Notes under the pieces: model-generated
What the model was told of the DNA's origin: nothing
The model's input: the letters and a program-made list of their open reading frames with translations, nothing else
Database searches by the model: none
Virus record (IMG/VR): IMGVR_UViG_3300047483_000184
Coordinates: 1 to 55,015 of that record
Source of the DNA: a virus
Lineage: Duplodnaviria; Caudoviricetes
Strand: one strand, 5' to 3'
Length of the DNA: 55,015 nucleotides
Shown here: one piece after another, positions 887-24,204 of the stretch
How the letters are laid out: the number at the start of each line of letters is the position of its first letter
How positions within the stretch are numbered: position 1 is the stretch's first letter
Made by a program: the position numbers and the translations under genes

Positions 887-2305
887 TTATTGACCTGCTT
901 TTTCAAGTGCTTTTATTTTCTTTTTTAACTCTTCTGCTTTGTGGAAATACTCATAAGACATACCCTTGTATTCCTTTCTTTGCGAATAAAGATCTGATAA
1001 TATTTTTTTAAGAATAGAATCTTCGTTCTTGTACACTACACCGTTTTCACAAACAATAACATTTTTATCTTTGCGTCGTTCTTCTATTTTAGAAGATGGT
1101 ACTTTTTCAATGAATGCATCTGGTGAAACATTAAACTGTCTCATGATCGATGGATATAGTGAAGCGTAGTCAAATGCACTTACTCCTTCATAGAAACCAA
1201 CAATAGGTTCTTTAACGAAAGCTCCAGCAAATTGACCTTCTTTTTTATTATCTTCTCTGGCTTCAGTTCCGATACGTTTACCTTCAGAAGCAATCTTTCT
1301 GGCAATTAATGCTTCGGTTACAGCTACTGGTGAAGCTGCTTTATATAAAGGCATTTTTGTAATAGACGCCAAAGTAATAAGTACATCCATTGATTTTAGT
1401 TTTTTATCAATATAATAAACTAAGATGGAGTCAATTACGTTATAATAGATGTATTTGGTAAAGTTGTCTCTGTATAAATCTTGTAAAGATCCTGTGAATT
1501 TAATCTTATTTGTACCTAATACTTGACTAGAAACATAATCCAAAGAGTTTGATTCTTTAACCTTAACCGATCTATCATACTTGTCATATAATTGCATGTA
1601 ATCCAGAATTCCCATGTGTAATGGTCTACTGTCTTCTGGATCTAATGAGCCTGTTCTGGACGAACCAACTATATCGATCTGTAAATGCTTACATCGATTT
1701 ACAATGTACTGCCAGTCATAGTTGATGAAGTTCCAGCCTGTCATCATAGGAAACTTAGGCATGAATTTATAAACAAAAGTATAAACCATGTCATACTCTG
1801 TTTTAAATTTAATATATTGAAAGGTCCACTCATCACCGAATTTTTTCATGTATTCGTTAGTGTCATCTTCAATCTTTTTAATTTTGTCTGACTCTAAGTC
1901 TTCTAAACCTAATACAATTACCTTTTTGTCAGGCGTAACAATTGAAAATGCTAGAATTCTTGATTTAGCTTCTTCAGCTTTTGGGAAACCATCGACGATT
2001 TCAGTTTCAATATCGACAAAATATGTTCTAGGTGAATTGTATTCATAAATGATTTCTTTATCCTTTTCAGGTAAACCATCCATGAAATACACTAATGAAA
2101 ATTTATTAAATTGTCTAGCTTGTGAAAGCTTCACTGAACGTCCATCCCAGTTTTTAAAATCTCTACTGGCACCAGCCTCTTTAGGATCGCAAACATACCA
2201 ATTTTTAAATTGAGTAATTGGATAACGTTTAAAATCTACAGATCCTTCTTTATTGAAATATGATACAATAATTTCTTTCTCTCTTTGTTCAATGTCTAAT
2301 AGCAT
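887..2305 (-). CDS. Family B DNA polymerase, N-terminal part (3'-5' exonuclease plus motif A) of a split polymerase
   Basis: ExoI DIET, ExoII GWNFINYD, ExoIII YNVID, linker FAGAFVKEP and motif A DYASLYPS. The protein ends shortly after RKEYK with no KxxxNSxYG or YGDTDS. Likely start is ATG at 2305 (MLLDIEQ), just after the upstream stop. Confidence 0.9.
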   Translation of the reverse strand: MLLDIEQREKEIIVSYFNKEGSVDFKRYPITQFKNWYVCDPKEAGASRDFKNWDGRSVKLSQARQFNKFSLVYFMDGLPEKDKEIIYEYNSPRTYFVDIETEIVDGFPKAEEAKSRILAFSIVTPDKKVIVLGLEDLESDKIKKIEDDTNEYMKKFGDEWTFQYIKFKTEYDMVYTFVYKFMPKFPMMTGWNFINYDWQYIVNRCKHLQIDIVGSSRTGSLDPEDSRPLHMGILDYMQLYDKYDRSVKVKESNSLDYVSSQVLGTNKIKFTGSLQDLYRDNFTKYIYYNVIDSILVYYIDKKLKSMDVLITLASITKMPLYKAASPVAVTEALIARKIASEGKRIGTEAREDNKKEGQFAGAFVKEPIVGFYEGVSAFDYASLYPSIMRQFNVSPDAFIEKVPSSKIEERRKDKNVIVCENGVVYKNEDSILKKILSDLYSQRKEYKGMSYEYFHKAEELKKKIKALEKAGQ

Positions 2306-2306
2306 A

Positions 2307-2774
2307 TTAATATCCGCGTTGTTGGCGTGCTTTGTTTTCAGCTGCCTTTGTGAAGTAATAGTTATATGCTGTTTTTGCATCTAAGCCAATAGAAGCTGCG
2401 TAATTGATAAAGAAATGCAGAATGTCAATCCATTCCATGTACAATTCTTTTTTATCGCCTTCAGAAAGATCTGAAACTTTTAAAGTGTCATATTTGGTAA
2501 AGTCTTTTTTCCAGTATTTCCAAACTGCGTTACCGCTGCCATCTTTAATACCACCTAAAGCATCTGTCATTTCGTGAATTTCATCAATTACAGCATGCGT
2601 ATTTACATGCCAAAAATTCATTACTTCGCGAATTGTCATGTCTTCGAATTTGATACCGTAAGTATTTTCTTGCATCTCTTTTTGATGCTCCATTATATCT
2701 GCTAAATGGGTTGTAGATTCATCATAAAAGTCATTAACTTCTAAATCTTTGCATTCGTTGTCTATATTTGCCAT
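2307..2774 (-). CDS. All-alpha NTP pyrophosphatase, T4 gp56-like dCTPase/dUTPase
   Basis: Acidic helix DEIHEM, WKYWK and ELYMEWIDILHFF, typical of the dimeric dUTPase/gp56 family. Confidence 0.8.
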   Translation of the reverse strand: MANIDNECKDLEVNDFYDESTTHLADIMEHQKEMQENTYGIKFEDMTIREVMNFWHVNTHAVIDEIHEMTDALGGIKDGSGNAVWKYWKKDFTKYDTLKVSDLSEGDKKELYMEWIDILHFFINYAASIGLDAKTAYNYYFTKAAENKARQQRGY

Positions 2775-2823: not shown

Positions 2824-3930
2824 TTATTTAAAAAATAAATTAGTTTTTAAATCTGACAATGCAGATGCTATAACTTGATGCATATCATAATACTTGTATT
2901 CTGCTAATCTACCACCAAAAAATACAGAATCCGTGTTAATTGCAGCTTGTTTGTATTTTTTATAGATATACATGTTGTGTTCATCGTTGACGGGATAATA
3001 TGGCTCTACGCCTCTTTTATAATCCACCGGATATTCCCAAGACACTAATGTATTTTTTTGATTTTTAAAATTAAAGTGTTTGTGTTCTATGCTTCTAGTG
3101 AATTGAATATCTGCTTCTGTGTAATTAACTACTGCATTGCCCTGAAAATCTGTATTTTCAAAAAAGCGTGTTTGAAATTCAACTGTTTTATATTCTAAGT
3201 CGCCGTATTTGTAATCAAAATATGCATCGATGGGACCTGTGTAAATTATTTTATTAGCTTTAGAATTCCAATAATCTTTATCTTTTAAATAATCTACTTC
3301 TAATTCTATTGAAATTCCGTCTAACATTTTTTCAAACAGACTTGTATAGCCATCGACTGGAATCCCTTGATATTTGTCATTGAAATAATTATTATCCCAC
3401 GTAAAACGAACTGGCAATCTTTTGATTATCGAAGCTGGTAAAAGCTTAGCTGATTTCTTCCATTGTTTTTCAGTGTAACCTTTGATTAATTTTTCATAAA
3501 TATCTGTTCCAACTAAAGCTAATGCTTGCTCTTCTAAATTTGTGATTTCTCCAGTGTATCTTTGTGATTCTATAATTTCTTTAGCTTCTTGTGGTTTTGT
3601 AACACCCCATAATTTATTGAAGGTCCACATTGAAAATGGTAAAGAATACATTTCACCACCGTATTTAGCAAGTGGTGAATTTCTAAAGTTATTAAACTCA
3701 CCGAATTGTTGAATCCATTGCCAAATTGTTTTATCATTGGTATGAAATATATGAGCACCGTATACATGAACGTCAATATCTTCTTCTCTTCTGGTATACG
3801 CATTTCCACCTATGTGATTTCTTTTTTCAATCACAAGTACTTTCTTGCCTAAACGGCTCAGTTCGTATGCACAAACTGAGCCGTAAAATCCTGAGCCAAC
3901 TATTAAATAATCGTAATCTTTGTTATGCAT
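2824..3930 (-). CDS. glf: UDP-galactopyranose mutase
   Basis: FAD motif IVGSGFYG, plus IGGN, HVYGAHIFHT, YQGIP, YTGPID, EPYYP and GRLAEYKYYDMHQVI. Confidence 0.95.
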   Translation of the reverse strand: MHNKDYDYLIVGSGFYGSVCAYELSRLGKKVLVIEKRNHIGGNAYTRREEDIDVHVYGAHIFHTNDKTIWQWIQQFGEFNNFRNSPLAKYGGEMYSLPFSMWTFNKLWGVTKPQEAKEIIESQRYTGEITNLEEQALALVGTDIYEKLIKGYTEKQWKKSAKLLPASIIKRLPVRFTWDNNYFNDKYQGIPVDGYTSLFEKMLDGISIELEVDYLKDKDYWNSKANKIIYTGPIDAYFDYKYGDLEYKTVEFQTRFFENTDFQGNAVVNYTEADIQFTRSIEHKHFNFKNQKNTLVSWEYPVDYKRGVEPYYPVNDEHNMYIYKKYKQAAINTDSVFFGGRLAEYKYYDMHQVIASALSDLKTNLFFK

Positions 3931-5071
3931 TTTCTAATTTAGCTTCTAAATTTTTAAAATGATTTAGATTATCTATAAGTCTTGGTTTTGCGTGTTCAAA
4001 TTCTGGATCATTGATGATTTCGTTTATTAATTTAACGCCTTCGTCAACTCTATTAGTCCAAAAACAAGCAACTGATAATTCATCATTGATATATTTACCA
4101 TAACACGTTGCGTTTACAAATAGTAGATATTTGCTTTGCGCATATTTTAAAGAAATTTTCTTAGCTCTACTTAGATAATCATAAGCTAAAGTATGATTTC
4201 CAATTTTATTCAGATAAAGACCTAAATAATAATAAGGTTCGGCTCTATCTGGTGAAAGCGTTATAGCCGTATTCATTTCATCTACAATTAAATTAGGATC
4301 TGAATCTGGCAAAGCCATCAAACATCTAGAAATTCTCATTTGTGCTTCAAATCTTTCTTCACTCCAAGTATCTTTTAATCTTGTATAAAGTCTATTCCAT
4401 TGTAAACCTTCTAACATCATATTAGAATCCATATAACTTTGTGCACAATAGAAAGCTGATCTATGATTTAATCCATCTGGGTCAAAGGCTAATGTATCAA
4501 AGAATTGTTTCTTTAATCTTTCAGCATCGTAAAAATACTTCTTAGGATCAAATGCTCTTGAACCAACAGGATCACAAATAACCCAACCTCTGGTTGATAA
4601 ATCTCCAGTGGAATAATTAGGTCTGTCAATACACTTAATAATCGTATGAGCAGTTCCACAGAATTTCCAACGCAATCTATTATTATAAACAACAGTAGCT
4701 TTATATGTTGCACTACCACGTTTCATTGTCATATAATAACAATCTTCGCCAGCATCTTCATTAGTAAAACTAAAATCACCTGCTAAAATATCATCAGCGT
4801 CTAAATGTAATACGTAATCTGTTTTATCTTTAACGTATTCCATCATTAAATTCTTGTTCTTGTCAAATCCAAACCATTCATCATTATGAATTTCTCCTGG
4901 AATACCAGTACGATCCATAAATTCTCGAACGATTTCTAAAGTTCTATCAGTAGAACCATTATCGGCAACTACAAGATAATCAATATAAGGCGCAACTGCG
5001 TCAAGTACTTGTCCGATGACATGTTCTTCATTTTTACACATAGTTGCAAATGCAAGTGTTGGTCTGTTCAT
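3923..5071 (-). CDS. Family 2 glycosyltransferase with C-terminal TPR repeats
   Basis: N-terminal GT-A motifs (MCKNEE, ADNGSTDRT, LDADD as DxD); helical TPR-like C-terminus (PDRAEPYYYLG). Overlaps glf by 8 nt. Confidence 0.88.
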   Translation of the reverse strand: MNRPTLAFATMCKNEEHVIGQVLDAVAPYIDYLVVADNGSTDRTLEIVREFMDRTGIPGEIHNDEWFGFDKNKNLMMEYVKDKTDYVLHLDADDILAGDFSFTNEDAGEDCYYMTMKRGSATYKATVVYNNRLRWKFCGTAHTIIKCIDRPNYSTGDLSTRGWVICDPVGSRAFDPKKYFYDAERLKKQFFDTLAFDPDGLNHRSAFYCAQSYMDSNMMLEGLQWNRLYTRLKDTWSEERFEAQMRISRCLMALPDSDPNLIVDEMNTAITLSPDRAEPYYYLGLYLNKIGNHTLAYDYLSRAKKISLKYAQSKYLLFVNATCYGKYINDELSVACFWTNRVDEGVKLINEIINDPEFEHAKPRLIDNLNHFKNLEAKLENA

Positions 5072-5078
5072 AATTTTA

Positions 5079-5972
5079 TTATTTTACGTCTATGATTTCG
5101 CCCCATTCTCTTTGGGCATTGATTGATTGTTTAGTGTCTTCATTTTCTGGCTTAGGATTTCCACCGACATTCCAAAACCAAGAACCTGGACTTCCATTCT
5201 TAAGCATTAATTCCCAAGCTTTTGCATCATAATTTAATGCACTTGGAAATGGTGGTTCAAATTCAGTTGCAACATTTTGACTAAATTCTTTTGGATGTGA
5301 CCATATTGTTGCTCGACCTCTTTCGCCCGCTTTAATATTTCTAGCTACTGCAACACCATTAAACTCTGCGTTTGGCCATGCGATTTGTAAAGCTCTTCCT
5401 AAAACTCCAGTTGAAATAGCGTGCCAAACTTCTTTAGGTTCTCCGTGAGTTTGAGCTAAGTCATAAGCTACTTTAACTGCAGCTGCTGTAACTAATTCGT
5501 GTCTTAAACCAAGCGGTATAAAAAAGCCATTGTTTTCTTTGGCCCAATCAGCTGCAATTTTATTAAGATTTGGCATAGCAGCGATTCTACGAAATTTCAT
5601 ATCTGCACCTCTTTCAATACAAATTGCTTGGTGATCTGAAATTTCTTTTTGACTTGGACTAAAAAGAACTAATTTTTTGTTGTATTTCTCAGCTAAATAT
5701 GCCAATGAAATTCCAGCAAAACCATATCTTGGTTGTACATAAACTAAAGTATCTGATTGACATGTTGAAACTAAAATATCACCGAAGCGACACTTAGAAC
5801 CAAAGCCCATTAAATCTTCTCTAACTACATTAAAGCCATCGTGTTCTTTTACTATAGGAGCTGGAAATGGATCTTGCCAATCTCCTGCTAATTCTAGCCA
5901 AGCATCTCTGTTTGGGTAAGCTAAATTTAAGTCTTGATTAAAATTGCTTGTTGTATGATTATTATGTGACAT
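5079..5972 (-). CDS. PLP-dependent enzyme (fold type II-like), probable DNA-modification tailoring enzyme
   Basis: VVREDL..FGSKCR (candidate PLP lysine), FFIPLG, AISTG, YDAKAW and FWNVG. Next to amino-acid:DNA transferase-like genes. Confidence 0.7.
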   Translation of the reverse strand: MSHNNHTTSNFNQDLNLAYPNRDAWLELAGDWQDPFPAPIVKEHDGFNVVREDLMGFGSKCRFGDILVSTCQSDTLVYVQPRYGFAGISLAYLAEKYNKKLVLFSPSQKEISDHQAICIERGADMKFRRIAAMPNLNKIAADWAKENNGFFIPLGLRHELVTAAAVKVAYDLAQTHGEPKEVWHAISTGVLGRALQIAWPNAEFNGVAVARNIKAGERGRATIWSHPKEFSQNVATEFEPPFPSALNYDAKAWELMLKNGSPGSWFWNVGGNPKPENEDTKQSINAQREWGEIIDVK

Positions 5973-6572
5973 TTAATCTTTTTTAAGTTTACAATTATCG
6001 AAATGCCATCTTTTGACATTTGCAGGTTTACCTATAAATTCACAATGAGGACATTGTATATTTTTTCTTTTTTTAAAGCTTTCTTTCATATTCGCAATAT
6101 GCGCTTCACTCTTTGGTCCTTTTTTATTAGATGAATCTTTATTAGGCTTTCTAAGTTTATTCAAATGTTCTTGCGTAAAAATTCTATCTTTCAGTGCTTC
6201 AGATTGTTTTCTTTTGGTTTCATCACTATGTTTTTTACCTTTCATTCCACTTGAACCGCCCAAATGATGTTGTCTAATTTTTTCTCTAACTTCATTTGTA
6301 AATATTATTTCTGAGCCTCTTGCATTATTATAGAATTCATCTGATTTTAAATCTATTTCTTTTAATATTCTTTGTTCTATAACTAAACAAGCTTCTGTAG
6401 TTCCTTCAGCTAATATTCTTCTTTGCCATTTCATATTTGGATTTTTAAAATCTTCCCAAAATATAGAACTAGAAGATGAACAAATATATCCATCGTCTTT
6501 TGAACCTTTATGATAACCAATATATTTTTTATTATTAGTTAAATTTATCCACTCGTATACAAATGCTTCCAT
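5973..6572 (-). CDS. Free-standing GIY-YIG homing endonuclease with NUMOD3 repeat(s)
   Basis: FVY..N..N.KKYIG.H, FYN, GMKGKKHSDETKRKQSEA (NUMOD3) and a C-terminal CPHC...WHFDNCK. Has its own GATATATAG motif at about 6596-6604. Confidence 0.85.
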   Translation of the reverse strand: MEAFVYEWINLTNNKKYIGYHKGSKDDGYICSSSSSIFWEDFKNPNMKWQRRILAEGTTEACLVIEQRILKEIDLKSDEFYNNARGSEIIFTNEVREKIRQHHLGGSSGMKGKKHSDETKRKQSEALKDRIFTQEHLNKLRKPNKDSSNKKGPKSEAHIANMKESFKKRKNIQCPHCEFIGKPANVKRWHFDNCKLKKD

Positions 6573-6633: not shown

Positions 6634-7761
6634 TTAAATGATTATATCTGGATAACTGGGTCTCCAAAGATGTTGTGTTGTTGTTGCATTAAGAATAACA
6701 TTTCCATCCGGGTGTTTAGCTAGATTAAAATCAGCGGGAAATATCCACGTATAAGGTATTCTCTTTGTTGGTGATTTAACGCCATGTGAAATTGCAATAT
6801 GTTTATACATGAAGCATGCTTTATCTTCTATATTTAACCATTTTTGACTAGTCATTGGATTCTTAGGATGATTAACTAAAGTTTCCATTTGTTCTAGCCA
6901 CAGCTCAGCATATTTATTCTCGGCAATAAACTCACCATTTTTACCAATTGTGTATTTGACTTTACCATTAACATTGGGTCCACTAAAAATCTGTTGCATA
7001 CCATCAAAGTGTCCAGTTCCACCATATAAAGGTGTTTCTGGGTCTATTAGGTGCGGATAAGCCATGGCTAAATATCTAGCTGCATTTTTACATGGATATA
7101 AAGGACTTCTAAAATTTTGGTCTTCTTTAAAATACTTTTCCATGATTTTAGCAAATTCCATCATTGTATATGGTCTGTCTAAATTCTCTAGAACATGTGA
7201 CATTTTTTCTGCTGCTCTTTTTGGACCCCATAGAAGCCACTCTTTAACGTCAGTGCCCTTTGGATAGTATATCTGAAACAAATCATTACGTGCGTGTCTA
7301 TTGTCTTTAAAATGCTTTTTGAGAGCTTCTTCACCTTCATTAATCAACATAGTTAAAGTTCCCCAGTGTTCGTTAGTAAATGAAAATACTAAAGTATACC
7401 AAAGTCTTTTCATTGGATCTGTAACATCTTTCATTAAATCACAAAATGGGTGTTCATGCCAGTGTAATCTGTGTGAAAATATCTGATAGTCTTCCGCTAA
7501 TAATTTGTCTTGTCTTTTGTCAAAGGCTTCACAAAACTCAAAGAATTTATCAAAACGTTCTTCTTGAGTCCAATCTTTCATCCAAGATTCGATAGGCTTG
7601 CCATTTTTCATTTTAACATCAGCCGTATTTGGATATTCAATATTTGTATAATGAACGCCTTCATCTTCAAACAATGATTCTGCTTGTTGATATTTCTTTT
7701 TAGACTTCGGCAATTCACATGCATCTGGTCTTATAAAATCTTCTGCTAATAGAGTATTCAT
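6634..7761 (-). CDS. Amino acid:DNA transferase-like protein (aGPT-Pplase / HhH-glycosylase fold), paralog 2
   Basis: C-terminal NIEDKACFMYKH resembles the family's E..xC...K/R motif; YGGTG glycine loop; shares layout with 7761..8984. Confidence 0.55.
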   Translation of the reverse strand: MNTLLAEDFIRPDACELPKSKKKYQQAESLFEDEGVHYTNIEYPNTADVKMKNGKPIESWMKDWTQEERFDKFFEFCEAFDKRQDKLLAEDYQIFSHRLHWHEHPFCDLMKDVTDPMKRLWYTLVFSFTNEHWGTLTMLINEGEEALKKHFKDNRHARNDLFQIYYPKGTDVKEWLLWGPKRAAEKMSHVLENLDRPYTMMEFAKIMEKYFKEDQNFRSPLYPCKNAARYLAMAYPHLIDPETPLYGGTGHFDGMQQIFSGPNVNGKVKYTIGKNGEFIAENKYAELWLEQMETLVNHPKNPMTSQKWLNIEDKACFMYKHIAISHGVKSPTKRIPYTWIFPADFNLAKHPDGNVILNATTTQHLWRPSYPDIII

Positions 7762-8984
7762 TATTTGTATATGTTTTTAACCATTTCTTTATATTGATCC
7801 ACTGTTAAACCAGCTTCTACTAAAATTTTATCATCTGATGGGTGACTAGTCATTCCATTAAAGGTTTTAACTATACCTAAATCTAACATGGCTTTTTGTC
7901 TACCAAATGGATGATCTTTAATTGTACTACTGTTCCAAACAGCGTCCATGTCTACATGGTTGTAATCTTTTCCTGGCCTTAAGTAGTTTTCGATCCATCT
8001 AATATAATCACAGGCCACATCTTCTGCGTTATATGGTAGCGATCCAGTATCTGCGTAGATCTTAGTCATAACTGCATCTAAGAATTCTTCTCCTTTTTTA
8101 TTGCCTTTGCCACCTTCAGGATCTGCTAAATAGCCGATACATTCTACTGCGTTAGTTCCATAGTAAAACATAGATTCTCTAACAACATATTCTGGGTACC
8201 AGTCAGCGATGTCTGCAATAACCGCAGCGTATTGAAAGCGGTATGCTCTTAACCCATTGTCATAGTTCCATTTGAAAAGCCATTCGCCTAATTCTCTAAG
8301 TTGTTTCTTTTCACCGGTTCTTAAATAAGTTGCCAATTCTCTGGCTAATCTCGGTGCAAATTCACATAAGTAATAATCTCCGCCTCTTTTATAAGTATAA
8401 GTAGTTTCATTAGAAAAGCCTGTCATGCCTACGAATAAATCATCTGCATTAGTTTGATTTTCCGGTGGTTTTGGAAAAGCTGGAAATTGATAACCAACTG
8501 AGGTATAAAATGGATATTGATGCGATTTAATAACTTCACACATATCTTCTATCGTATCGCATTCGTGTAAATGAAATAAAATAGTGTTATGATAACCAGA
8601 AGGTTTAGTTGCATAATTAATACCTGAACCTGTAACTCTATGCAAGATAAAAAGATAAAGCCATTCTTCAAGACCAAAAACTTGTTGTTTTCCTGTCCAG
8701 TTTTTAGCTACTTCTACTCTTTGCGAAGTGTGAATTCCGGCATTCATTTTATCCCAATATGGATGTTCTGGAGTCCAACCGTAAAAAATATCGTTTACGA
8801 TTTGAGAAAACCCAGCATATTTTCTTTCTACAACATCATATAATTCTATGTGTTCCATTAAAGAATCGCCCATATTACTTTCCATATAACCAACAGTTCC
8901 TAAATTACAAAGATCTTGCTGTTTTTTGGCAAGATCAAAGTATCTTATAAACTCATCGTAGTATTTGGTAGTTTGAATTTTCAT
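7761..8984 (-). CDS. Amino acid:DNA transferase-like protein (aGPT-Pplase / HhH-glycosylase fold), paralog 1
   Basis: YDVVERKY (cf. FxNxxRxxD), FQYAAVIADI..YP, YYGTNA and NAEDVACDYIRW match the pattern of thymidine hypermodification transferases as I recall it. Confidence 0.62.
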   Translation of the reverse strand: MKIQTTKYYDEFIRYFDLAKKQQDLCNLGTVGYMESNMGDSLMEHIELYDVVERKYAGFSQIVNDIFYGWTPEHPYWDKMNAGIHTSQRVEVAKNWTGKQQVFGLEEWLYLFILHRVTGSGINYATKPSGYHNTILFHLHECDTIEDMCEVIKSHQYPFYTSVGYQFPAFPKPPENQTNADDLFVGMTGFSNETTYTYKRGGDYYLCEFAPRLARELATYLRTGEKKQLRELGEWLFKWNYDNGLRAYRFQYAAVIADIADWYPEYVVRESMFYYGTNAVECIGYLADPEGGKGNKKGEEFLDAVMTKIYADTGSLPYNAEDVACDYIRWIENYLRPGKDYNHVDMDAVWNSSTIKDHPFGRQKAMLDLGIVKTFNGMTSHPSDDKILVEAGLTVDQYKEMVKNIYK

Positions 8985-9238
8985 TATGAACTATGATTTT
9001 CAAAAATGTCGTAATAATCACCTTCAGCTTTTACACCAACAAGACGTTCTAATTCTGTGTTTGATTCATCTACTAAAATAACAGTAGGCACACTTCTAAT
9101 TCCAAATTGAGCTGACAACTCTTCGTTCTCATCTACATTGATTTTTTCAACTTCGTATTTTTGGGCCACTTTTTCCATAATTGGTCCTAACATTCTACAA
9201 GGTCCACACCAAGGTGCAGAAAAATATAAGTATTTCAT
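8984..9238 (-). CDS. trxA: Thioredoxin
   Basis: FSAPWCGPC active site and GIRSVPT. Likely start ATG at 9238 (MKYLYF), giving 84 aa. Confidence 0.92.
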   Translation of the reverse strand: MKYLYFSAPWCGPCRMLGPIMEKVAQKYEVEKINVDENEELSAQFGIRSVPTVILVDESNTELERLVGVKAEGDYYDIFENHSS

Positions 9239-9255
9239 AAATATTGGTTTTAGTC

Positions 9256-10335
9256 CTAAAACAAGGACATTGTTTTCTTTTCTAATCTTTTGTTTGGGCA
9301 ATTCGCTGTCATGTCCCATCTGTAAAATTCTCTAGAGATATGAACTGATTTTGGTTGTTCCATCACATCAAAAGTCAATTCACCTTTATCATTGAAGTAA
9401 ACATCCGAGTGTTTATAAACTTTCCAATTGTTTCTTTTGCACATCTCATCAATGTAGTTATTGATTTCTTTCGACAATTGAGTACGCTCTAACCAAGAAC
9501 CAAAAAATGGTGTGTCTTTATAATAGCCTGTTTTTGGTAAAACTCTTGATTCATTTTCTATAGGTAAAACATGAATCAACTCAATATTGCTAATGCCATT
9601 TTCTTGTAATGCTTTAAGTTGTTGTTCATAATTTTTCATCATGATTTCAACTGCATTTTTAGGATTAGCTTGTCTCATTAAGTGATGCCTAACATCAATA
9701 TTACCCATATAACATGTTAATGTTTTGATCCATGGATAAATGTAAGATTCTAATCCTCTTTTAAGAGCACCGTGCATTGTTAATCCATCATGTCTTTGGC
9801 ACATATAACCTGCTTGATACATTCCAAAAGAGTGAGAATCACCAAAACAAAGCTTGTCTGTTTTTTCAATGTGATCAATCTTAGGAATATCATTAGCACA
9901 AATTGATTTGATTAACTCAATGTCTTGTTCTAAAGTTTTAAATAGATCTGTGCCTGTTTTTAATCGTTGTTCAATCAAAGCGCCAATGCAAGGCATATCA
10001 TGATGCAAGCTATACATCTTAACATTGCTTTTAATACGAATTATTTGATTGTATAAATCATCATTAGCTCCTCCAAAAATATTAAAGTTGCCTTTAAATT
10101 CCATACCATGATCTATCAAAATAATATCGTAATTATTCCAATCAGTTTCGTTTGAAGTAATAACATCAACATCTTTAAAACCTGCATTTGTTAATTGATT
10201 TGCAAGCATAAAACACCACGCTGATTTATGTGAACTGATCTTAGGACTTAATTTACCTACTAATGCTGAAATACCTATTTTAGCATTTTTGTCAGTAACA
10301 TAGTCTGTAAAATAACTAAAGTCTTGATTATTCAT
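9256..10335 (-). CDS. Putative fusion of a T4 beta-glucosyltransferase-like N-terminal domain and an SGNH hydrolase/acyltransferase-like domain
   Basis: N-half KIGI...DVDVI...DWNNYDIILI...NIFGG...KMYSLHHDMP resembles T4 BGT (KIAI...NVDII...DVNDYDRLIV...NFFGG...KIYYLFTD, from memory). C-half has FGDSH, MGNID and SVH. Likely start ATG at 10335. Confidence 0.5.
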   Translation of the reverse strand: MNNQDFSYFTDYVTDKNAKIGISALVGKLSPKISSHKSAWCFMLANQLTNAGFKDVDVITSNETDWNNYDIILIDHGMEFKGNFNIFGGANDDLYNQIIRIKSNVKMYSLHHDMPCIGALIEQRLKTGTDLFKTLEQDIELIKSICANDIPKIDHIEKTDKLCFGDSHSFGMYQAGYMCQRHDGLTMHGALKRGLESYIYPWIKTLTCYMGNIDVRHHLMRQANPKNAVEIMMKNYEQQLKALQENGISNIELIHVLPIENESRVLPKTGYYKDTPFFGSWLERTQLSKEINNYIDEMCKRNNWKVYKHSDVYFNDKGELTFDVMEQPKSVHISREFYRWDMTANCPNKRLEKKTMSLF

Positions 10336-10627
10336 TAGTAACTGGTTTTTCAGTGTCTTTATAACCGAATTTTTCAACATAATTATCAAGAGCGCCTAAG
10401 TAAGCGACTGCGTCTAATAAATTATCTTGTTTGTAGTTGTATGAGTGACGACTTAATTTTAATGCAACTAACGCAGCATACATGTCACTTCCTGTAAAAT
10501 CTTTACCAGTCATACCACTGGCAATTTGTGCGGCTCTGCGCATACCTTCTTCAAATGGACCATATTGACGTTCTTTTTCTTCAGAACGTTCATTTATAAT
10601 CTTGTTGGCTTGGTCTAGTATATTCAT
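10328..10627 (-). CDS. DUF6378-like small phage protein (possible nucleotide pyrophosphohydrolase)
   Basis: ILDQA..II..R..QYG, KLSR and DNLLDAVAY pattern. Confidence 0.7.
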   Translation of the reverse strand: MNILDQANKIINERSEEKERQYGPFEEGMRRAAQIASGMTGKDFTGSDMYAALVALKLSRHSYNYKQDNLLDAVAYLGALDNYVEKFGYKDTEKPVTNE

Positions 10628-14910: not shown

Positions 14911-14947
14911 AACTTTTATTATTTTTCTTTATCTATATATTAATATA

Positions 14948-16402
14948 TTATTTCATTTTAAATCCTAGTTTGCCATTGTCTGGACTATACACGGATTGAT
15001 TTGGCGCTTCAAACGTGAATTTAACGCCTTCTGTTGAAAATGATTTAAGATGTAACATCATCTCTTGTTTTTTAGGGGCAAAATCCAAATACAATTGTTT
15101 TACTTCTAATTTAGATAGTAATTCTGTTAAGGATGCTTGATATGTACCATTGCTATTTAAATAATCTGTAACATGGTAGCTCATAGGTCCTATGATTGCT
15201 CCATATAATTTAGTGCTCTTGATTTTATTCCACTCTACCGATTTACCCTGTGGGTATCTTCCAATAGTGCTATAAAAACCATCAAATACTTGCATAAATG
15301 AATCTGGATCTTTAGCTAAAATATCTGTAATGAATTTATTTAAACTTTCAGTGGTTACATTCTTTTCTTTAGTTATTTCAACTAATTTTTGGTAACCTGG
15401 TAAATTAAGTAATTGTGAAATAGCTAAATATCCAGCAGATACTTTATTACTTTCAACTGTATTAAAAATCTGCCAAAGTTCTCTTTGAGCTTGTGTTGTT
15501 AATTGATCTGAATCTACGTTTTTAATAATTCCAGTCAAAGTCGGTGCAGCACCTGATTTATATTTTGAAGATACTCCGTAACCATCTATGTAAAAATCTA
15601 CTAACGGATTATTTCCTGTTGGAAATTCAACTCCTTTTTCATATCCACATGCATTCATCATGTAAATAGCTCCAAGAATTTCACCAAAATCTTTACCAAC
15701 TGTATTTAAATCAGATGGATCGAATTTAGCAACAAATCCTGCAGTATTAGGTGAGTATTTAATAGTTTCTTCAAATGAATCAACATGACCTGCAGATTCA
15801 AAATTATGCTTTGAAGAATGTCCAGCAACATCATCAACCATAGAAGTTAATAAACCTACAATAACTTCTTGATCTGAAAATTTAGATCTTACTGCTTTTT
15901 TTGTAAATTCAACTAGCTGTCCTTTGTTTAAGTACGTCGGTGGTAATCCTAGTCCAGTCGGTGTTAAAATTTTAGAAGTAAATGAACCGCTTGGAACATC
16001 ATCGTTTACTATATGAAACTGTAAACCCATTGGATAATCAATTCCTTTAATAGTAACAGCATCTTCTAATTTAACAATATACGTGTAATATGTACCTGAA
16101 TATGCGCCTGCTTTATAATCTTTTGGTGAGATTGCATCAATAGAATAATTGTTTAATTCTTTTTTAAGAATTGAATTGATATTGTCAAGTGAATCATTAA
16201 CTGATTTTCCCAACATATATCTTAAATGTTTAGGTCTTCTACCTGATTCTATTTTACCATCGTGCCCGTTTTTATCAAAAATAAGTCTTAGATAATTAAT
16301 CAAGCTACTTTCATCACCTGATTTTGATTCATTTAAAGAATCGAATTGTTTATTTAATTCGGCCTGAAATCTAGCTCTAATGTCCCCTGGTGTAATTGCC
16401 AT
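14948..16402 (-). CDS. PD-(D/E)xK restriction-endonuclease-fold protein, possibly virion-packaged
   Basis: DFGEILG...EFPTGNNPLVDFYIDGYGVSSK..GAAP; N-terminal FDSLNES. Confidence 0.5.
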   Translation of the reverse strand: MAITPGDIRARFQAELNKQFDSLNESKSGDESSLINYLRLIFDKNGHDGKIESGRRPKHLRYMLGKSVNDSLDNINSILKKELNNYSIDAISPKDYKAGAYSGTYYTYIVKLEDAVTIKGIDYPMGLQFHIVNDDVPSGSFTSKILTPTGLGLPPTYLNKGQLVEFTKKAVRSKFSDQEVIVGLLTSMVDDVAGHSSKHNFESAGHVDSFEETIKYSPNTAGFVAKFDPSDLNTVGKDFGEILGAIYMMNACGYEKGVEFPTGNNPLVDFYIDGYGVSSKYKSGAAPTLTGIIKNVDSDQLTTQAQRELWQIFNTVESNKVSAGYLAISQLLNLPGYQKLVEITKEKNVTTESLNKFITDILAKDPDSFMQVFDGFYSTIGRYPQGKSVEWNKIKSTKLYGAIIGPMSYHVTDYLNSNGTYQASLTELLSKLEVKQLYLDFAPKKQEMMLHLKSFSTEGVKFTFEAPNQSVYSPDNGKLGFKMK

Positions 16403-18270: not shown

Positions 18271-18290
18271 TTCTTTTATTTTTGTTTTAC

Positions 18291-18326
18291 AAATATAATA
18301 AATTTATTTGATATATGAAAATATTT
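18291..18326 (-). promoter_or_regulatory. Candidate early (host sigma) promoter
   Basis: aaatatttt-catat-atcaa-ataaatttat-tatattt(g); gapless match to 11424-11459, with a perfect TAnnTTTG. Confidence 0.55.
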
Positions 18327-18341
18327 GTAGATTTATTTTAT

Positions 18342-19622: not shown

Positions 19623-19636
19623 ATTAAAAGAAAAGT

Positions 19637-19664
19637 AAAAGACCCAAATCGATTGGGTCTTTTT
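19637..19664 (-). terminator. Intrinsic terminator
   Basis: aaaagacccaa-atcga-ttgggtcttttt. Confidence 0.75.
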
Positions 19665-19682
19665 AATTTTAGATATTTTAGT

Positions 19683-23982: not shown

Positions 23983-24204
23983 TTAAAATAGTGAGCGCTT
24001 GTTTTTGTCTTCTTTAATATAAACAGATGATTTAATTTTCTGTTTAAACTTTGGTTTAATCTCAAATCCCAAAGCGTTACCGTCATATTGTGTGCTCGTA
24101 GAAGTAAAATCAACAAGAGACTTTAAGCCCTTGCGTTTTTCTCTTTCGTTTTGAAAATCTTCTAGTTCTTCGTCAACCATTTGTAATAATCTTTCTAAAA
24201 TCAT
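23983..24204 (-). CDS. Hypothetical protein
   Basis: 73-aa ORF with ATGA overlap with the primase gene. Confidence 0.55.
   Translation of the reverse strand: MILERLLQMVDEELEDFQNEREKRKGLKSLVDFTSTSTQYDGNALGFEIKPKFKQKIKSSVYIKEDKNKRSLF

What the first reader, a model, noticed from the sequence alone, without database searches (positions are those of the whole stretch)
9256..10335. Apparent fusion of a beta-glucosyltransferase acceptor domain to an SGNH domain: a candidate new DNA acyl-modifying enzyme
Seen: the N-half reads KIGI...AGFKDVDVI...DWNNYDIILID...NIFGG...KMYSLHHD. The C-half has SGNH-like blocks (FGDSH, MGNID, SVH). Known, from memory: the T4 beta-glucosyltransferase N-domain reads KIAI...GLNVDII...DVNDYDRLIV...NFFGG...KIYYLFTD, where NFFGG is the base-flipping loop and the Asp is the catalytic base. 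Its C-domain binds UDP-glucose. Inference: the sugar-donor domain has been replaced by an SGNH esterase/acyltransferase. The product could be an enzyme that flips a hydroxymethyl-pyrimidine (or a glycosylated base) and adds or removes an acyl group. It lies inside a hypermodification-like cluster, and I know of no described enzyme with this architecture.
Basis: partly seen in the sequence, partly recalled or inferred. Interest (0 to 1): 0.85.

Follow-up and report, generated by a model that had tools for sequence, protein, structure and literature searches.

The report
Glucosyltransferase-like/SGNH enzyme in phage DNA-modification operon
This phage gene joins the DNA-base-binding half of the T4 DNA glucosyltransferase to an esterase/acyltransferase-type domain, and it probably does a still unknown step in decorating hydroxymethylcytosine in phage DNA.

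Summary
Window 9256-10335 (minus strand) encodes a 359-aa protein with every quoted motif.

- **C-terminal half:** an SGNH/GDSL fold. The AF2 model has pLDDT 96.9; the best Foldseek PDB hit has E 1.9e-6, and all listed hits are SGNH enzymes.
- **N-terminal half:** homologous to the N-terminal domain of T4 beta-glucosyltransferase by profile-profile comparison (97% probability, E 3e-11; 17 shuffled or reversed controls gave 0.5% or less). Foldseek did not single out BGT.
- **Family size:** 407 clusters at 50% identity, with no Pfam family and PHROG function "unknown".
- **Fusions:** in other phages the family is fused to the window's 407-aa neighbour type, or to a 5-hmdU-DNA-kinase-helical-domain-type module.
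- **Neighbourhood:** 51 of 51 loci with enough flank carry one of those two modules. Distant relatives place the gene beside a T4-gp42-type dCMP hydroxymethylase. The conserved PLP partner belongs to the phage M6 gp52 family. No P-loop kinase travels with the cassette.

Best reading: a core enzyme of a kinase-less cytosine hypermodification pathway, most likely transferring an acyl group onto 5-hydroxymethylcytosine in DNA. The chemistry is untested.

This scan had noted the same gene on other DNA before (e1-5802530, e1-5802543, e1-6092088).

The parts
9256..10335 (-). Target gene: 359-aa BGT-N-like/SGNH two-domain protein (P0001)
   Evidence: Matches phrog_13881 at 1.5e-58 over its full length. 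AF2 model pLDDT 96.9, pTM 0.93.
9961..10287 (-). Residues 17-125: region homologous to T4 beta-glucosyltransferase residues 1-116 (N-terminal acceptor domain)
   Evidence: hhalign 97.2%, E 2.9e-11; 96.5%; controls; coordinates.
10069..10083 (-). NIFGG loop (85-89), aligned to the BGT NFFGG loop (70-74). This is the one motif conserved in both families.
   Evidence: N85 111/119, G88 102/119, G89 108/119. BGT N70, G73 and G74 are invariant in 36 sequences. Alignment.
10228..10233 (-). S35-H36, a family-specific conserved pair in the N-domain with no BGT counterpart
   Evidence: S35 112/119, H36 114/119. They align to non-conserved BGT T17-V18 (my reading of the alignment printed).
9301..9873 (-). 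Residues ~155-345: SGNH/GDSL-fold domain
   Evidence: Foldseek PDB: 3p94 at E 1.9e-6, TM 0.66 on the target; 43 hits at E<=1e-3; every row shown is an SGNH esterase or acyltransferase. Sub-threshold Pfam hits: Lipase_GDSL 12/119, Lipase_GDSL_2 9/119, SGNH 6/119.
9832..9843 (-). Block I, G165-D166-S167-H168 (putative nucleophile Ser167), directly after strand 161-165
9694..9705 (-). Block III-like G211-N212-I213-D214, followed by the conserved R216-H217-H218-x-x-R221
   Evidence: G211 115, N212 101 (S in 14), D214 119, R216 119, H217 108, H218 116, R221 115 of 119.
9340..9342 (-). His332 (Block V-like, in SVH). There is no Asp at -3; invariant E326 lies at -6.
   Evidence: H332 117/119, E326 119/119, S330 111/119.
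10328..10627 (-). Upstream DUF6378 gene, translationally coupled to the target (8-nt overlap)
   Evidence: PF19905 at 4e-11. A homolog is present in 75 of 80 IMG/VR loci. Overlap shown.
8984..9319 (-). Thioredoxin gene. The likely true start is the ATG at 9238. It is an accessory gene, present in only 4 loci.
   Evidence: PF00085 at 4e-17.
7761..8984 (-). 407-aa partner protein (w407), fused to the target family in other phages
   Evidence: P0128 (740 aa) residues 448-723 match it by BLASTP at 1e-36. A homolog is present in 70 of 104 loci. Its ESM Atlas neighbours carry PF18723 in 11-36% of members. No Pfam or PHROG hit.
6634..7761 (-). 375-aa protein (w375), possibly amino acid:DNA transferase-like
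   Evidence: ESM Atlas neighbours are named 'putative Amino acid:DNA transferase domain-containing protein' or carry PF18724 in 57% of members. This is a lead only. No Pfam or PHROG hit.
5973..6572 (-). Homing endonuclease inserted in the operon
   Evidence: phrog_314 at 3.4e-24; NUMOD3.
5079..5972 (-). PLP enzyme of the phage M6 gp52 family
   Evidence: phrog_7093 at 2.9e-39. M6 gp52 scores 2.2e-159 on the same PHROG. gp52 is called a PLP-dependent decarboxylase acting on DNA-borne glycinyl-thymine in PMC8989533 (passages).
2824..5071 (-). GT2 glycosyltransferase (3923-5071) and UDP-galactopyranose mutase (2824-3930). Accessory genes found only in the closest relatives.
   Evidence: present in 2 of 80 IMG/VR loci.
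2307..2774 (-). 155-aa NTP pyrophosphohydrolase (MazG/dUTPase-like)
   Evidence: phrog_173 at 7.9e-14.
887..2380 (-). N-terminal part of the family-B DNA polymerase, which marks the T4 gene 41-43 interval
   Evidence: The T4 map shows b-gt and gene 42 in the same interval.

Best explanation
The gene encodes a two-domain cytoplasmic enzyme.

- **Residues ~17-125 (shown)** are a trimmed homolog of the N-terminal domain of T4 beta-glucosyltransferase. By recall, that is BGT's acceptor/DNA-binding domain. It keeps BGT's invariant N-x-F-G-G loop.
- **Residues ~155-345 (shown)** are an SGNH-fold domain with the Ser (GDSH) and His kept, surrounded by invariant Arg and His residues. BGT's UDP-glucose domain is absent.
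- **Gene context (shown)**: the protein is a core member of a conserved phage cassette. The cassette holds (a) a gp42-type dCMP hydroxymethylase in distant relatives, (b) a helical module of w407 type or HMUDK_hel type that is sometimes fused to it, and (c) either an M6-gp52-type PLP enzyme or a myo-inositol-phosphate-synthase-like enzyme with a HAD-like phosphatase. No P-loop DNA kinase is part of it.

**Inferred mechanism:**
1. The BGT-like domain presents a flipped 5-hydroxymethylcytosine of replicated phage DNA.
2. Ser167 of the SGNH domain carries an acyl group and passes it to the 5-CH2OH.
3. The resulting ester plays the role that the phosphate put on by 5-hmdU DNA kinase plays in thymidine hypermodification. 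It is a leaving group that the helical transferase-like partner replaces with an amino acid or other nucleophile, which the PLP enzyme and glycosyltransferases then tailor.

**My odds:** two-domain architecture 0.9; role in DNA cytosine hypermodification 0.7; O-acyl activation of 5hmC specifically 0.3-0.35.
For: **Architecture**
- hhalign of the family against the BGT family gives 97.2% and 96.5%, with reversed and shuffled controls at 0.5% or less.
- PF09198 is touched by 4 of 119 members, and no other glycosyltransferase family appears among the 25 families listed.
- All listed Foldseek matches are SGNH.
- Ser167 is kept in 118 of 119 members and His332 in 117 of 119.
- The full-length model has pTM 0.93.

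**Functional link by fusion**
- P0128 is the family domain plus a w407-type domain (BLASTP 1e-36).
- P0174, the Aeromonas 44RR-type 795-aa protein, is the family domain plus an HMUDK_hel-type module (hhalign 100%, E 1.6e-58).
- P0129 is an FkbM methyltransferase plus PF18723 (4.5e-11) plus the family domain.

**Neighbourhood**
- 96 of 104 loci hold a w407-type or HMUDK_hel-type gene. Among loci with at least 4 kb on both sides it is 51 of 51.
- The PLP or MIPS-like enzyme is present in 48 of those 51.

**Cytosine pathway**
- A divergent TS-family gene sits about 1 kb upstream in 8 of the 9 records tested from the 40-45% identity clade, and within the flank in 16 of 24 MAG loci.
- All 27 aligned TS-like proteins from these loci carry Asp at both the ThyA-169 and ThyA-177 positions, as T4 gp42 does.
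- PMC13326640 section 28 (read) gives N177 as the specificity residue and D169N as the mark of 5-hydroxy-dCMP synthases.
- 44RR2.8t has gene 42. PMC2771037 (passages) says 44RR-type phages have gp42 and Alc homologs. 44RR2.8t has no PF09198 or PF11440 glucosyltransferase, and T4 serves as the positive control.

**Vacant kinase slot**
- None of the 10 long fused forms has a Walker A motif.
- No kinase-like Walker-A ORF recurs within 7 kb; the recurring ones look like replication ATPases and thymidine kinase, by my reading of the motifs, ORF sizes.
- The PLP partner is in the same PHROG as M6 gp52.

**Position**
- The gene lies in the gp41-gp43 interval, where T4 keeps b-gt and gene 42.
Against: - Foldseek gives no significant structural match of the N-domain to BGT or any GT-B. 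The best rows are flavodoxin, CheY and amidotransferase-like at E of 0.01 or worse. BFVD returns only family members.
- D113, aligned to BGT Asp100, is not conserved family-wide, so BGT-style base catalysis is not a family trait.
- The SGNH blocks are atypical. Asn212 is shifted by one position and is Ser in 14 of 119 members. There is no Asp three residues before His332. All Pfam GDSL/SGNH hits are below threshold.
- No acyl donor is identified.
- The window has no TS-family gene. Its 91%-identical relative G001 (64% complete) shows only a ThyA-like protein with Asn at position 177. Only 9 of 40 well-flanked IMG/VR loci have a TS-like gene nearby. The hmC link for this particular phage is therefore by extension from relatives.
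- w407 shows no detectable profile similarity to the HMUDK_hel-type module or to M6 gp51. Its transferase nature rests on language-model neighbours.
- Two cultured exceptions exist. Aeromonas phage 25 has glf, a 358-aa unknown protein, then the family gene. Tenacibaculum phage PTm5 has the gene among RNR genes. Neither has a helical module nearby, which fits a function not tied to that partner.
- Many of the 104 loci are close relatives, so the counts are not independent events.
Confidence: 0.4

Rival explanations
1. A tailoring enzyme rather than an activator. The SGNH domain adds or removes an O- or N-acyl group on the group already appended to the base (amino acid, cyclitol or galactofuranose), or hydrolyses an ester intermediate. 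The BGT-like domain docks the modified base.
For: - The nearest structural matches include sugar O-acetyl esterases and a polymer O-acetyltransferase: sialate O-acetylesterases 7pzh and 6xpg, acetyl xylan esterase 7ddy, and PatB 8tlb.
- The family gene sits beside glf in Aeromonas phage 25 with no helical module. glf plus GT2 is in the window's operon.
- Acetylation as a final tailoring step has a precedent in PaMx11 gp48, though that is a GNAT enzyme (PMC8989533, passages).
- Earlier scan notes e1-5802530 and e1-5802543 read it this way.
Against: - The gene is a constant member of cassettes whose appended group must differ (PLP type versus MIPS/HAD type), whereas tailoring enzymes usually vary with the group.
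- It is fused to the helical module, not to the variable enzymes.
- The conserved motif shared with BGT is the one in the acceptor domain of an enzyme that, by recall, acts on the bare 5-hydroxymethyl group.
Confidence: 0.25
2. It acts before replication on a mononucleotide, for example an ester or acyl derivative of 5hm-dCMP or 5hm-dCTP, as part of nucleotide-pool metabolism rather than on DNA.
For: In the 40-45% clade its immediate neighbours are nucleotide-level enzymes, in the order gp42-like TS, DUF6378, dUTPase, family gene, with thymidine kinase nearby. In the window it is coupled to DUF6378, and an NTP pyrophosphohydrolase lies in the operon.
Against: By recall, BGT acts on DNA, not on nucleotides, and its N-terminal domain is the acceptor/DNA domain. 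That is the domain homologous here. The family is fused to modules named after a DNA kinase domain. PMC8989533 (passages) describes the M6 gp52 reaction as taking place on substrate oligonucleotides.
Confidence: 0.1
3. It is unrelated to DNA. It is an SGNH esterase or acyltransferase for a sugar, lipid or host envelope glycan (an auxiliary metabolic or host-takeover gene), and the BGT likeness reflects only a shared Rossmann-like fold.
For: - Foldseek ranks generic flavodoxin-like folds above BGT.
- In 44RR2.8t the gene sits next to a sodium:solute symporter-like gene.
- PTm5 has the gene among RNR genes.
- Phage SGNH domains are commonly glycan esterases (established knowledge).
Against: - The profile match to BGT is specific: 97% against 0.5% or less in 17 controls, with the invariant NxFGG motif of both families aligned.
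- There are three kinds of fusion to w407-type or HMUDK_hel-type modules.
- 51 of 51 well-flanked loci carry such a module.
- The gene is linked to gp42-type genes.
- By my reading of the sequence, there is no hydrophobic N-terminus or signal-like stretch.
Confidence: 0.07
4. It is a non-catalytic adaptor. The protein only recognises or flips the modified base and recruits the helical transferase, and the SGNH domain is a scaffold.
For: The family is fused and co-located with the helical modules. The SGNH blocks III and V are atypical.
Against: Conservation of G-D-S-H (117, 119, 118 and 119 of 119), His332 (117 of 119) and E326, R216, R264 and R284 (119 of 119 each), across sequences only 28-40% identical to the query, is the pattern of an active site, not a scaffold.
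Confidence: 0.05

Closest known systems
T4 beta-glucosyltransferase (b-gt; Pfam PF09198 T4-Gluco-transf; GT-B fold)
   Same: - The first ~110 residues are homologous (hhalign 97%), including the N-x-F-G-G loop invariant in both families.
- In the window's clade, an Asp aligns with BGT Asp100.
- The genomic position between the helicase/primase genes and the DNA polymerase gene is the same.
- Both are linked to gp42-type dCMP hydroxymethylase.
   Different: - There is no UDP-glucose-binding C-terminal domain; an SGNH domain stands in its place.
- No member reaches the Pfam threshold.
- The N-domain is shorter, with 5 strands in the model.
- Foldseek does not retrieve BGT.
- The Asp100 equivalent is not conserved family-wide.
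- The expected chemistry is acyl transfer or hydrolysis, not glycosyl transfer.
SGNH/GDSL esterases and polymer O-acyltransferases (e.g. 3p94 GDSL-like lipase, sialate O-acetylesterase 7pzh/6xpg, PAF-AH, PatB 8tlb)
   Same: The fold matches, and the conserved residues sit where expected: GDS after strand 1, G-(N/S)-x-D after strand 3, and a C-terminal His.
   Different: - Sequence identity is 9-20%, and all Pfam hits are sub-threshold.
- The block III Asn is displaced, and there is no DxxH Asp.
- A dense set of invariant Arg and His residues surrounds the site (R216, H217, H218, R221, R264, R284), suggesting an anionic substrate such as DNA or a nucleotide-linked donor (inference).
- The protein is cytoplasmic and fused to a DNA-enzyme domain. 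I know of no SGNH enzyme acting on DNA, and searches found none.
Thymidine hypermodification clusters of phages M6, ViI, PaMx11, SP10 and PhiW-14 (dUMP hydroxymethylase + 5-hmdU DNA kinase + amino acid:DNA transferase + PLP/rSAM/FAD/acetyltransferase tailoring)
   Same: - The logic is the same: a TS-family hydroxymethylase, a helical transferase-like protein and an M6-gp52-family PLP enzyme, next to replication genes (PMC8989533 and PMC5889632 passages).
- PF18723 is present in the fused or adjacent partners.
   Different: - The hydroxymethylase is of the cytosine (gp42) type.
- No P-loop kinase is in the cassette.
- The BGT-N/SGNH protein is present instead, and it is absent from the described thymidine clusters: there is no 'SGNH', 'GDSL' or 'esterase' in the text of PMC8989533.
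- w407 and the HMUDK_hel-type module show no detectable similarity to M6 gp51.

Membership tests
T4 beta-glucosyltransferase family (PF09198 / GT-B DNA glucosyltransferase) | N-terminal acceptor domain homologous to BGT residues 1-167 | tested here: met
   hhalign of A2 against A4 gives 97.2%, E 2.9e-11, BGT 1-116. A3 against A4 gives 96.5%. Controls are at 0.5% or less.
T4 beta-glucosyltransferase family (PF09198 / GT-B DNA glucosyltransferase) | Scores above the Pfam gathering threshold for PF09198 | tested here: not met
   P0001 has no hit at E<=10. Only 4 of 119 members hit at E<=1, the best at 0.0024.
T4 beta-glucosyltransferase family (PF09198 / GT-B DNA glucosyltransferase) | Second Rossmann-like domain binding UDP-glucose (BGT invariant G188, R191, R269, E272) | tested here: not met
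   hhalign aligns nothing beyond BGT residue 116. The C-half is an SGNH fold.
T4 beta-glucosyltransferase family (PF09198 / GT-B DNA glucosyltransferase) | Catalytic base Asp100 (role recalled from the BGT D100A literature, not read here) | tested here: inconclusive
   D113 aligns with D100 and is D or E in most of the 29 clade sequences. Family-wide, the position varies among P, D, E and K.
T4 beta-glucosyltransferase family (PF09198 / GT-B DNA glucosyltransferase) | Structural superposition of the N-domain on BGT | tested here: inconclusive
SGNH/GDSL hydrolase superfamily | Three-layer alpha/beta/alpha SGNH fold | tested here: met
   Foldseek probability 1.00, best E 1.9e-6, 43 hits at E<=1e-3, and all rows shown are SGNH enzymes or designs on that fold.
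SGNH/GDSL hydrolase superfamily | Block I GDS with nucleophile Ser | tested here: met
   G165 117, D166 119 and S167 118 of 119, directly after strand 161-165.
SGNH/GDSL hydrolase superfamily | Block II Gly and Block III GxND Asn (oxyanion hole) | tested here: inconclusive
   G184 is kept in 86 of 119 and T186 in 116 of 119. The block III sequence is G211-N212-I213-D214: the Asn lies one position earlier than canonical, is Ser in 14 of 119, and Ile occupies the canonical Asn position. No coordinates were available to check the geometry.
SGNH/GDSL hydrolase superfamily | Block V DxxH (His plus Asp of the triad) | tested here: inconclusive
   H332 is kept in 117 of 119. Position -3 is R, Q or K, not Asp. 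Invariant E326 at -6 could serve as the acid.
SGNH/GDSL hydrolase superfamily | Reaches Pfam threshold for a GDSL/SGNH family | tested here: not met
   Lipase_GDSL scores E 0.013 and 16.1 bits against a cut-off of 23.6. The sub-threshold hits are 12, 9 and 6 of 119 members.
Post-replicative pyrimidine hypermodification cluster (M6/ViI type) | TS-family pyrimidine hydroxymethylase | tested here: inconclusive
   None is found in the window. A gp42-type gene lies next to the family gene in 8 of 9 records of the 40-45% clade and in 16 of 24 MAG loci.
Post-replicative pyrimidine hypermodification cluster (M6/ViI type) | 5-hmdU DNA kinase (P-loop) | tested here: not met
   The fused forms have no Walker A motif. 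No kinase-like Walker-A ORF recurs within 7 kb. The phrog_800 search was non-specific, so a kinase elsewhere in the genome is not excluded.
Post-replicative pyrimidine hypermodification cluster (M6/ViI type) | Amino acid:DNA transferase (PF18724) or related helical module | tested here: inconclusive
   w407 and w375 have no Pfam hit; only ESM Atlas neighbours carry PF18723 or PF18724. PF18723 is found above threshold in partners of relatives. There is no similarity to M6 gp51.
Post-replicative pyrimidine hypermodification cluster (M6/ViI type) | PLP enzyme of the M6 gp52 / ViI gp226 type | tested here: met
   The window's 5079-5972 product hits phrog_7093 at 2.9e-39. M6 gp52 scores 2.2e-159 on the same PHROG. 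Direct BLASTP between them is only 0.007.

The most novel reading that the evidence does not exclude
The family would be the first SGNH enzyme known to act on DNA: a 5-hydroxymethylcytosine O-acyltransferase, built from the base-presenting half of a DNA glucosyltransferase. It would replace the 5-hmdU-type DNA kinase as the activating step of a widespread, kinase-less cytosine hypermodification pathway. The ester it makes would then be displaced by amino acids (PLP-type cassette) or cyclitols (MIPS/HAD-type cassette). That would give cytosine derivatives not yet described in marine T4-like phages, jumbo phages and Aeromonas phages.
Probability: 0.3. Interest if true: 0.9.

Novelty: new variant of a known kind. 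Interest (0 to 1): 0.78.

Why it matters
Known phage DNA hypermodification activates the 5-hydroxymethyl group by phosphorylation (thymidine pathways) or uses it directly as a glycosyl acceptor (T-even phages).

This family points to a third solution on cytosine. It is large: 407 clusters at 50% identity. It is abundant in marine T4-like phages and also present in cultured Aeromonas, Stenotrophomonas and Tenacibaculum phages.

If the family modifies 5hmC in DNA, three things follow:
- It defines a new enzyme class acting on DNA bases.
- It predicts undescribed cytosine derivatives in very common environmental phages.
- It explains how 44RR-type phages, which have gp42 but no glucosyltransferase, could protect their DNA.

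Such enzymes are also candidate tools for selective chemical labelling of 5hmC. The question can be tested directly, because cultured phages and 5hmC-DNA substrates exist.

Tried and rejected
**Sequence searches against solved structures.** phmmer and hmmsearch with P0001, A2, A5 and A6 gave nothing meaningful. P0001 matched USP1 at E 0.0012 over a low-complexity-like stretch, and A2 matched Naa30 at E 0.77.

**Foldseek on the N-domain alone.**
- PDB gave no significant hit.
- BFVD returned only family members.
- Model coordinates are not exposed, so I could not measure whether Ser167 and His332 face the NxFGG loop.

**Complex prediction.** Complex prediction on the target plus w407 gave 'no answer' with score 0.00. 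I do not count it either way.

**Homology of the partner proteins.**
- w407 and w375 show no BLASTP similarity to each other.
- w407 against the HMUDK_hel-type module gave hhalign 0.2% with small alignments and again with enlarged ones of 58 and 26 sequences.
- w407 and the HMUDK_hel-type profile against M6 gp51 gave 0.1%.
- The C-terminus of P0174 is not similar to w407 or w375.
- The 358-aa ORF of phage 25 resembles neither the window's GT2 nor w407.

**Search for a DNA kinase.** phrog_800, the PHROG of M6 gp54, rings in all 14 control genomes, so it is useless as a marker.

**Rejected ideas.**
- That the TS-like neighbours are 5-hydroxy-dCMP synthases: they carry Asp, not Asn, at the ThyA-169 position.
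- That the C-half is a degenerate GT-B donor domain: there is no hhalign match beyond BGT 116, and the Foldseek hits are uniformly SGNH.

**Literature limits.**
- The BGT structure papers are not in the library, so Asp100 as the catalytic base and any role of the NFFGG loop are recalled.
- Supplements of PMC8989533, PMC13326640 and PMC8670742 were closed. Their gene tables or domain lists might mention this family.
- PMC8670742 main text has no 'HMUDK', 'DNA kinase', 'GDSL', 'SGNH', 'Inos-1-P' or 'unannotated'.

Full report
**1. What is there.**
The finding's coordinates hold one ORF on the minus strand. It runs 9256..10335 from the ATG (359 aa, P0001); an upstream TTG at 10389 would add 18 residues. 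Most homologs are 357-360 aa and start at the equivalent of the ATG. The ATG overlaps the stop of the upstream DUF6378 gene by 8 nt (ATGAATAA).

The window is a 31% GC fragment of an uncultured T4-like phage, estimated 19% complete. All genes in the region run on the minus strand. In transcription order they are:
- primase (24201-25277) and helicase (22004-23512);
- a block of unknown genes;
- DUF6378, then the target, then thioredoxin;
- a 407-aa unknown (w407) and a 375-aa unknown (w375);
- a homing endonuclease and a PLP enzyme;
- GT2, UDP-galactopyranose mutase and an NTP pyrophosphohydrolase;
- the N-terminal part of the DNA polymerase and the RNR small subunit.

In T4 the same helicase-to-polymerase interval holds b-gt and gene 42.

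**2. The family.**
Pfam gives no hit at E<=0.01. At E<=10 only Lipase_GDSL appears, at 0.013 and below its cut-off. PHROGs place the protein full-length in phrog_13881, and in the first 341 positions of the 795-position phrog_17781. Both are marked 'unknown function'.

A word-indexed search found 562 relatives. The exhaustive search of 50%-identity representatives found 407 at E<=1e-3 and 181 at E<=1e-30, and nearly all cover query residues ~20-340. The two halves therefore travel together as one old unit.

In cultured phages the family occurs in 43 records: 38 Aeromonas T4-like phages, 2 Stenotrophomonas and 3 Tenacibaculum. All are annotated hypothetical.

**3. Fold.**
AlphaFold2 on a 119-sequence alignment gave pLDDT 96.9 and pTM 0.93.

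*C-terminal half.* Foldseek against the PDB found 43 hits at E<=1e-3. Every row shown is an SGNH/GDSL esterase or acyltransferase, or a design on that fold, aligned over about 190 columns. The best is 3p94 at E 1.9e-6, with TM 0.66 on the target. Conservation across 119 members, which are 28-84% identical to the query, fits an active SGNH site:
- G165 117, D166 119, S167 118 and H168 119, directly after strand 161-165;
- G211 115 and D214 119, after strand 205-209;
- H332 117.

The site departs from the canon in three ways:
- The block III Asn is one position early (G-N-I-D) and is Ser in 14 members.
- There is no Asp three residues before the His, although E326 is invariant.
- Invariant or near-invariant R216, H217, H218, R221, E260, R264 and R284 surround the motifs. 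I read this as a pocket for an anionic substrate (inference).

**4. Is the N-half BGT-like?**
I fetched the T4 b-gt gene, collected 42 PF09198 relatives and aligned 36 of them. The profile comparisons were:

| Query | Target | Probability | E-value |
|---|---|---|---|
| Family profile A2 | BGT family profile A4 | 97.2% | 2.9e-11 |
| N-domain profile A3 | BGT family profile A4 | 96.5% | 7.7e-10 |
| A2 | Single T4 BGT sequence | 79.7% | 1.5e-5 |
| A3 | Single T4 BGT sequence | 12.5% | 0.0023 |

The A2-A4 match covers 102 columns, query 17-125 on BGT 1-116. My local repeat gave 97.1% and 96.8%. Two reversed and 15 column-shuffled query profiles gave at most 0.5%, with scores of 10-19 against 84.8.

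As an independent weak echo, each of the 119 members was scanned against Pfam at E<=1. The recurrent families were Lipase_GDSL (12), Lipase_GDSL_2 (9), SGNH PF19040 (6) and T4-Gluco-transf PF09198 (4, best 0.0024). No other glycosyltransferase family is among the 25 listed. PF09198 has 167 positions and covers the N-terminal half of T4 BGT.

The only strongly conserved motif common to both families is N-x-F-G-G: BGT N70, G73 and G74 are invariant, and here N85 is kept in 111, G88 in 102 and G89 in 108 of 119. D113 aligns with BGT Asp100, but that position is P, D, E or K across the family. The family's own conserved S35-H36 has no BGT counterpart.

My conclusion is that homology of the N-half to the BGT N-terminal domain is well supported by sequence profiles. 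It is not confirmed by the structure search available, and BGT's catalytic Asp is not a family trait. That Asp100 is the catalytic base, and any role of the NFFGG loop, are recalled; the BGT structure papers are not in the library.

**5. Fusions.**
Ten long family members were scanned.
- P0129 (981 aa) is an FkbM methyltransferase, then PF18723 HMUDK_hel (4.5e-11), then the family domain.
- P0174 (795 aa, the 44RR2.8t ORF233c type) has a C-terminal 376-777 that matches the stand-alone PF18723-bearing protein of jumbo-phage loci at hhalign 100%, E 1.6e-58.
- P0128 (740 aa) carries at 448-723 a domain 29% identical to the window's w407, BLASTP 1e-36.
- None of the ten has a Walker A motif.

**6. 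Neighbourhoods.**
I analysed 80 IMG/VR loci and 24 MAG-contig loci, spanning 29-96% identity to the query, using phmmer and local HMMs.
- Of the 104 loci, 96 hold a w407-type (70) or HMUDK_hel-type (26) gene. The 8 without one are cut within 2.5 kb of the gene on at least one side.
- Among the 51 loci with at least 4 kb on both sides, all 51 hold one (37 plus 14), and 48 hold either the PLP enzyme (34) or a myo-inositol-1-phosphate-synthase-like enzyme (14).

Two cassettes emerge:
- **Type A:** (gp42-like) + w407 + sometimes w375 + PLP + family gene.
- **Type B:** gp42-like + MIPS-like + a small protein with HAD motifs (FDIDGVI, ITGR, FEDD; my reading) + HMUDK_hel-type + family gene. In some type B loci an FkbM methyltransferase, a C5-methylase-like gene, an NAD epimerase and thymidine kinase are also present.

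Many loci are close relatives, so these counts overstate the number of independent events. There are exceptions. Aeromonas phage 25 has glf, a 358-aa unknown protein and then the family gene. Tenacibaculum phage PTm5 has the gene among RNR genes. Neither has any of my HMM families nearby.

**7. Which base?**
A divergent TS-family gene (E 1e-17 to 1e-24, about 285 aa) lies about 1 kb upstream of the family gene in 8 of the 9 records tested from the 40-45% clade; L078 lacks it. One also lies inside 16 of 24 MAG loci.

All these proteins share the T4 gp42 motif MRSND..FG.(R/K)ND, with Asp at the positions of E. coli ThyA D169 and N177. PMC13326640 (section 28 read) names N177 as the substrate-specificity residue and D169N as the signature of 5-hydroxy-dCMP synthases. 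By that rule these are dCMP hydroxymethylase-type enzymes.

44RR2.8t has gene 42 next to its split polymerase. PMC2771037 (passages) states that 44RR-type phages have gp42 and Alc homologs. 44RR2.8t and four IMG/VR records, one of them complete, have no PF09198 or PF11440 match, while T4 gives both.

There is a gap for the window's own phage:
- No TS-family gene lies in the 55 kb.
- Its 91%-identical relative G001 (64% complete) has only a 435-aa ThyA-like protein with Asn at 177.
- Two records of the wider clade (G005, G015) have a divergent TS-like gene elsewhere on the contig.

**8. Comparison with thymidine hypermodification.**
In M6, ViI and PaMx11 the cluster is dUMP hydroxymethylase + P-loop 5-hmdU DNA kinase + amino acid:DNA transferase + tailoring enzymes (PMC8989533 and PMC5889632, passages). 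Against that template:
- The window's PLP enzyme falls in phrog_7093 (2.9e-39), the PHROG of M6 gp52 (2.2e-159), although direct BLASTP between the two is only 0.007.
- The nearest ESM Atlas clusters of w407 and w375 carry PF18723 (11-36% of members) or PF18724 (12-57%), and one is named a putative amino acid:DNA transferase. These are leads, not proof. Profile comparisons of w407 with the HMUDK_hel-type module or with M6 gp51 find nothing.
- No P-loop kinase travels with the cassette. The recurrent Walker-A ORFs look like helicase, clamp-loader-like ATPases and thymidine kinase (my reading of motifs and sizes).
- A genome-wide kinase search was not informative.

By subtraction, the BGT-N/SGNH protein is the constant member standing where the kinase stands in thymidine clusters. 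It is also fused to the same kind of helical domain that Pfam names after that kinase.

**9. Mechanism.**
*Shown:* the domain homologies, the conserved Ser and His, the fusions, and the cassette.

*Inferred:* the BGT-like domain presents 5hmC of DNA. Ser167 carries an acyl group and transfers it to the 5-CH2OH. The ester then serves as the leaving group for the helical transferase-like partner, and tailoring follows (PLP enzyme; GT2 and Glf in this phage). The odds and the rival readings (tailoring esterase or acyltransferase, nucleotide-level enzyme, non-DNA esterase, adaptor) are given in their own sections.

The phage 25 context and the sugar-esterase structural neighbours keep the tailoring reading alive. 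No acyl donor is identified. The CitG-family gene inserted next to the family gene in some relatives hints at dephospho-CoA-type thioester chemistry, but that is a lead only.

**10. Novelty.**
The family has no Pfam family and an unknown-function PHROG, and all database names are 'hypothetical'. Full-text searches for SGNH + hypermodified + phage returned one unrelated paper, and beta-glucosyltransferase + SGNH + bacteriophage returned none. The thymidine-pathway paper does not mention SGNH, GDSL or esterase.

The scan itself had already noted the same gene on other DNA (e1-5802530, e1-5802543), and a follow-up had described a kinase-less cytosine hypermodification operon (e1-6092088). My results agree, and they add the BGT homology, the fusions and the type B cassette.

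I class this as a new variant of a known kind of system (post-replicative pyrimidine hypermodification) containing a new enzyme architecture.

Noticed in passing
window 2824-5071; L114 3764-5942 (Aeromonas phage 25): UDP-galactopyranose mutase (glf) recurs next to the family gene in two very distant contexts. In the window it is paired with a GT2 gene. In Aeromonas phage 25 the order is glf, a 358-aa unknown, then the family gene. PMC13326640 (section 28) proposes phage Glf as the source of UDP-Galf for DNA glycosylation in Rhizobium phage RL38JI. These phages may therefore carry galactofuranose on a modified cytosine.
   Followed up: partly
L026 9207-10004, L054 2529-3326, L035 9077-9913: The slot between the family gene and w407 takes optional inserts. 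L026 and L054 carry a CitG-family gene (PF01874, 8.2e-11, above cut-off). L035 carries a Galactosyl_T/Fringe-like glycosyltransferase. The window carries thioredoxin there. CitG makes the dephospho-CoA-derived prosthetic-group precursor of acyl carrier proteins (established knowledge), which may bear on the acyl donor.
   Followed up: partly
L072 6454-15546 and MAG loci L095-L099, L103, L106, L109: Type B cassette: gp42-like TS, DUF6378, dUTPase, family gene, myo-inositol-1-phosphate-synthase-like enzyme, FkbM methyltransferase, a small HAD-motif protein, an HMUDK_hel-type protein, a C5-DNA-methylase-like gene, an NAD epimerase and thymidine kinase. This suggests a cyclitol- or sugar-derived cytosine modification in jumbo phages.
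   Followed up: partly
protein P0129 (981 aa, metagenomic): A triple fusion: FkbM methyltransferase (58-205), PF18723 HMUDK_hel (431-556) and the family domain (649-980).
   Followed up: no
window 3-830 and 887-2380: The family-B DNA polymerase ORF (497 aa) holds only the exonuclease domain and the start of the polymerase domain. The next ORF downstream is an RNR small subunit (phrog_86, 4.5e-59), not the rest of the polymerase. 44RR2.8t also has a split gene 43.
   Followed up: no
window 5973-6572: A homing endonuclease (phrog_314, NUMOD3) is inserted between w375 and the PLP gene. It is present at that place in only 3 other loci.
   Followed up: no
L084 1486-2793 (record G001, 91%-identical relative of the window's phage): A 435-aa ThyA-like protein with the TS motifs (PPCH, QRSVD, PFN) plus large insertions and a C-terminal extension. 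Whether it is a thymidylate synthase or a dUMP hydroxymethylase is open.
   Followed up: no
window 8984-9319: The thioredoxin ORF as listed starts at 9319, inside the target gene. The thioredoxin domain begins near residue 28, and an ATG at 9238 (MKYLYFSAPWCGPC) lies 17 nt after the target's stop, so 9238 is the likelier start.
   Followed up: partly
window 12430-21967: A run of large ORFs has almost no family hits (826, 484, 426 and 620 aa). A 622-aa protein has a C-terminal cytidylyltransferase-like domain (PF01467, 1.7e-9).
   Followed up: no
L001 5366-6889 (Aeromonas phage 44RR2.8t): A sodium:solute symporter-like gene lies directly upstream of the fused family gene ORF233c in 44RR2.8t (annotation). 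This is an odd neighbour for a DNA-modification enzyme.
   Followed up: no
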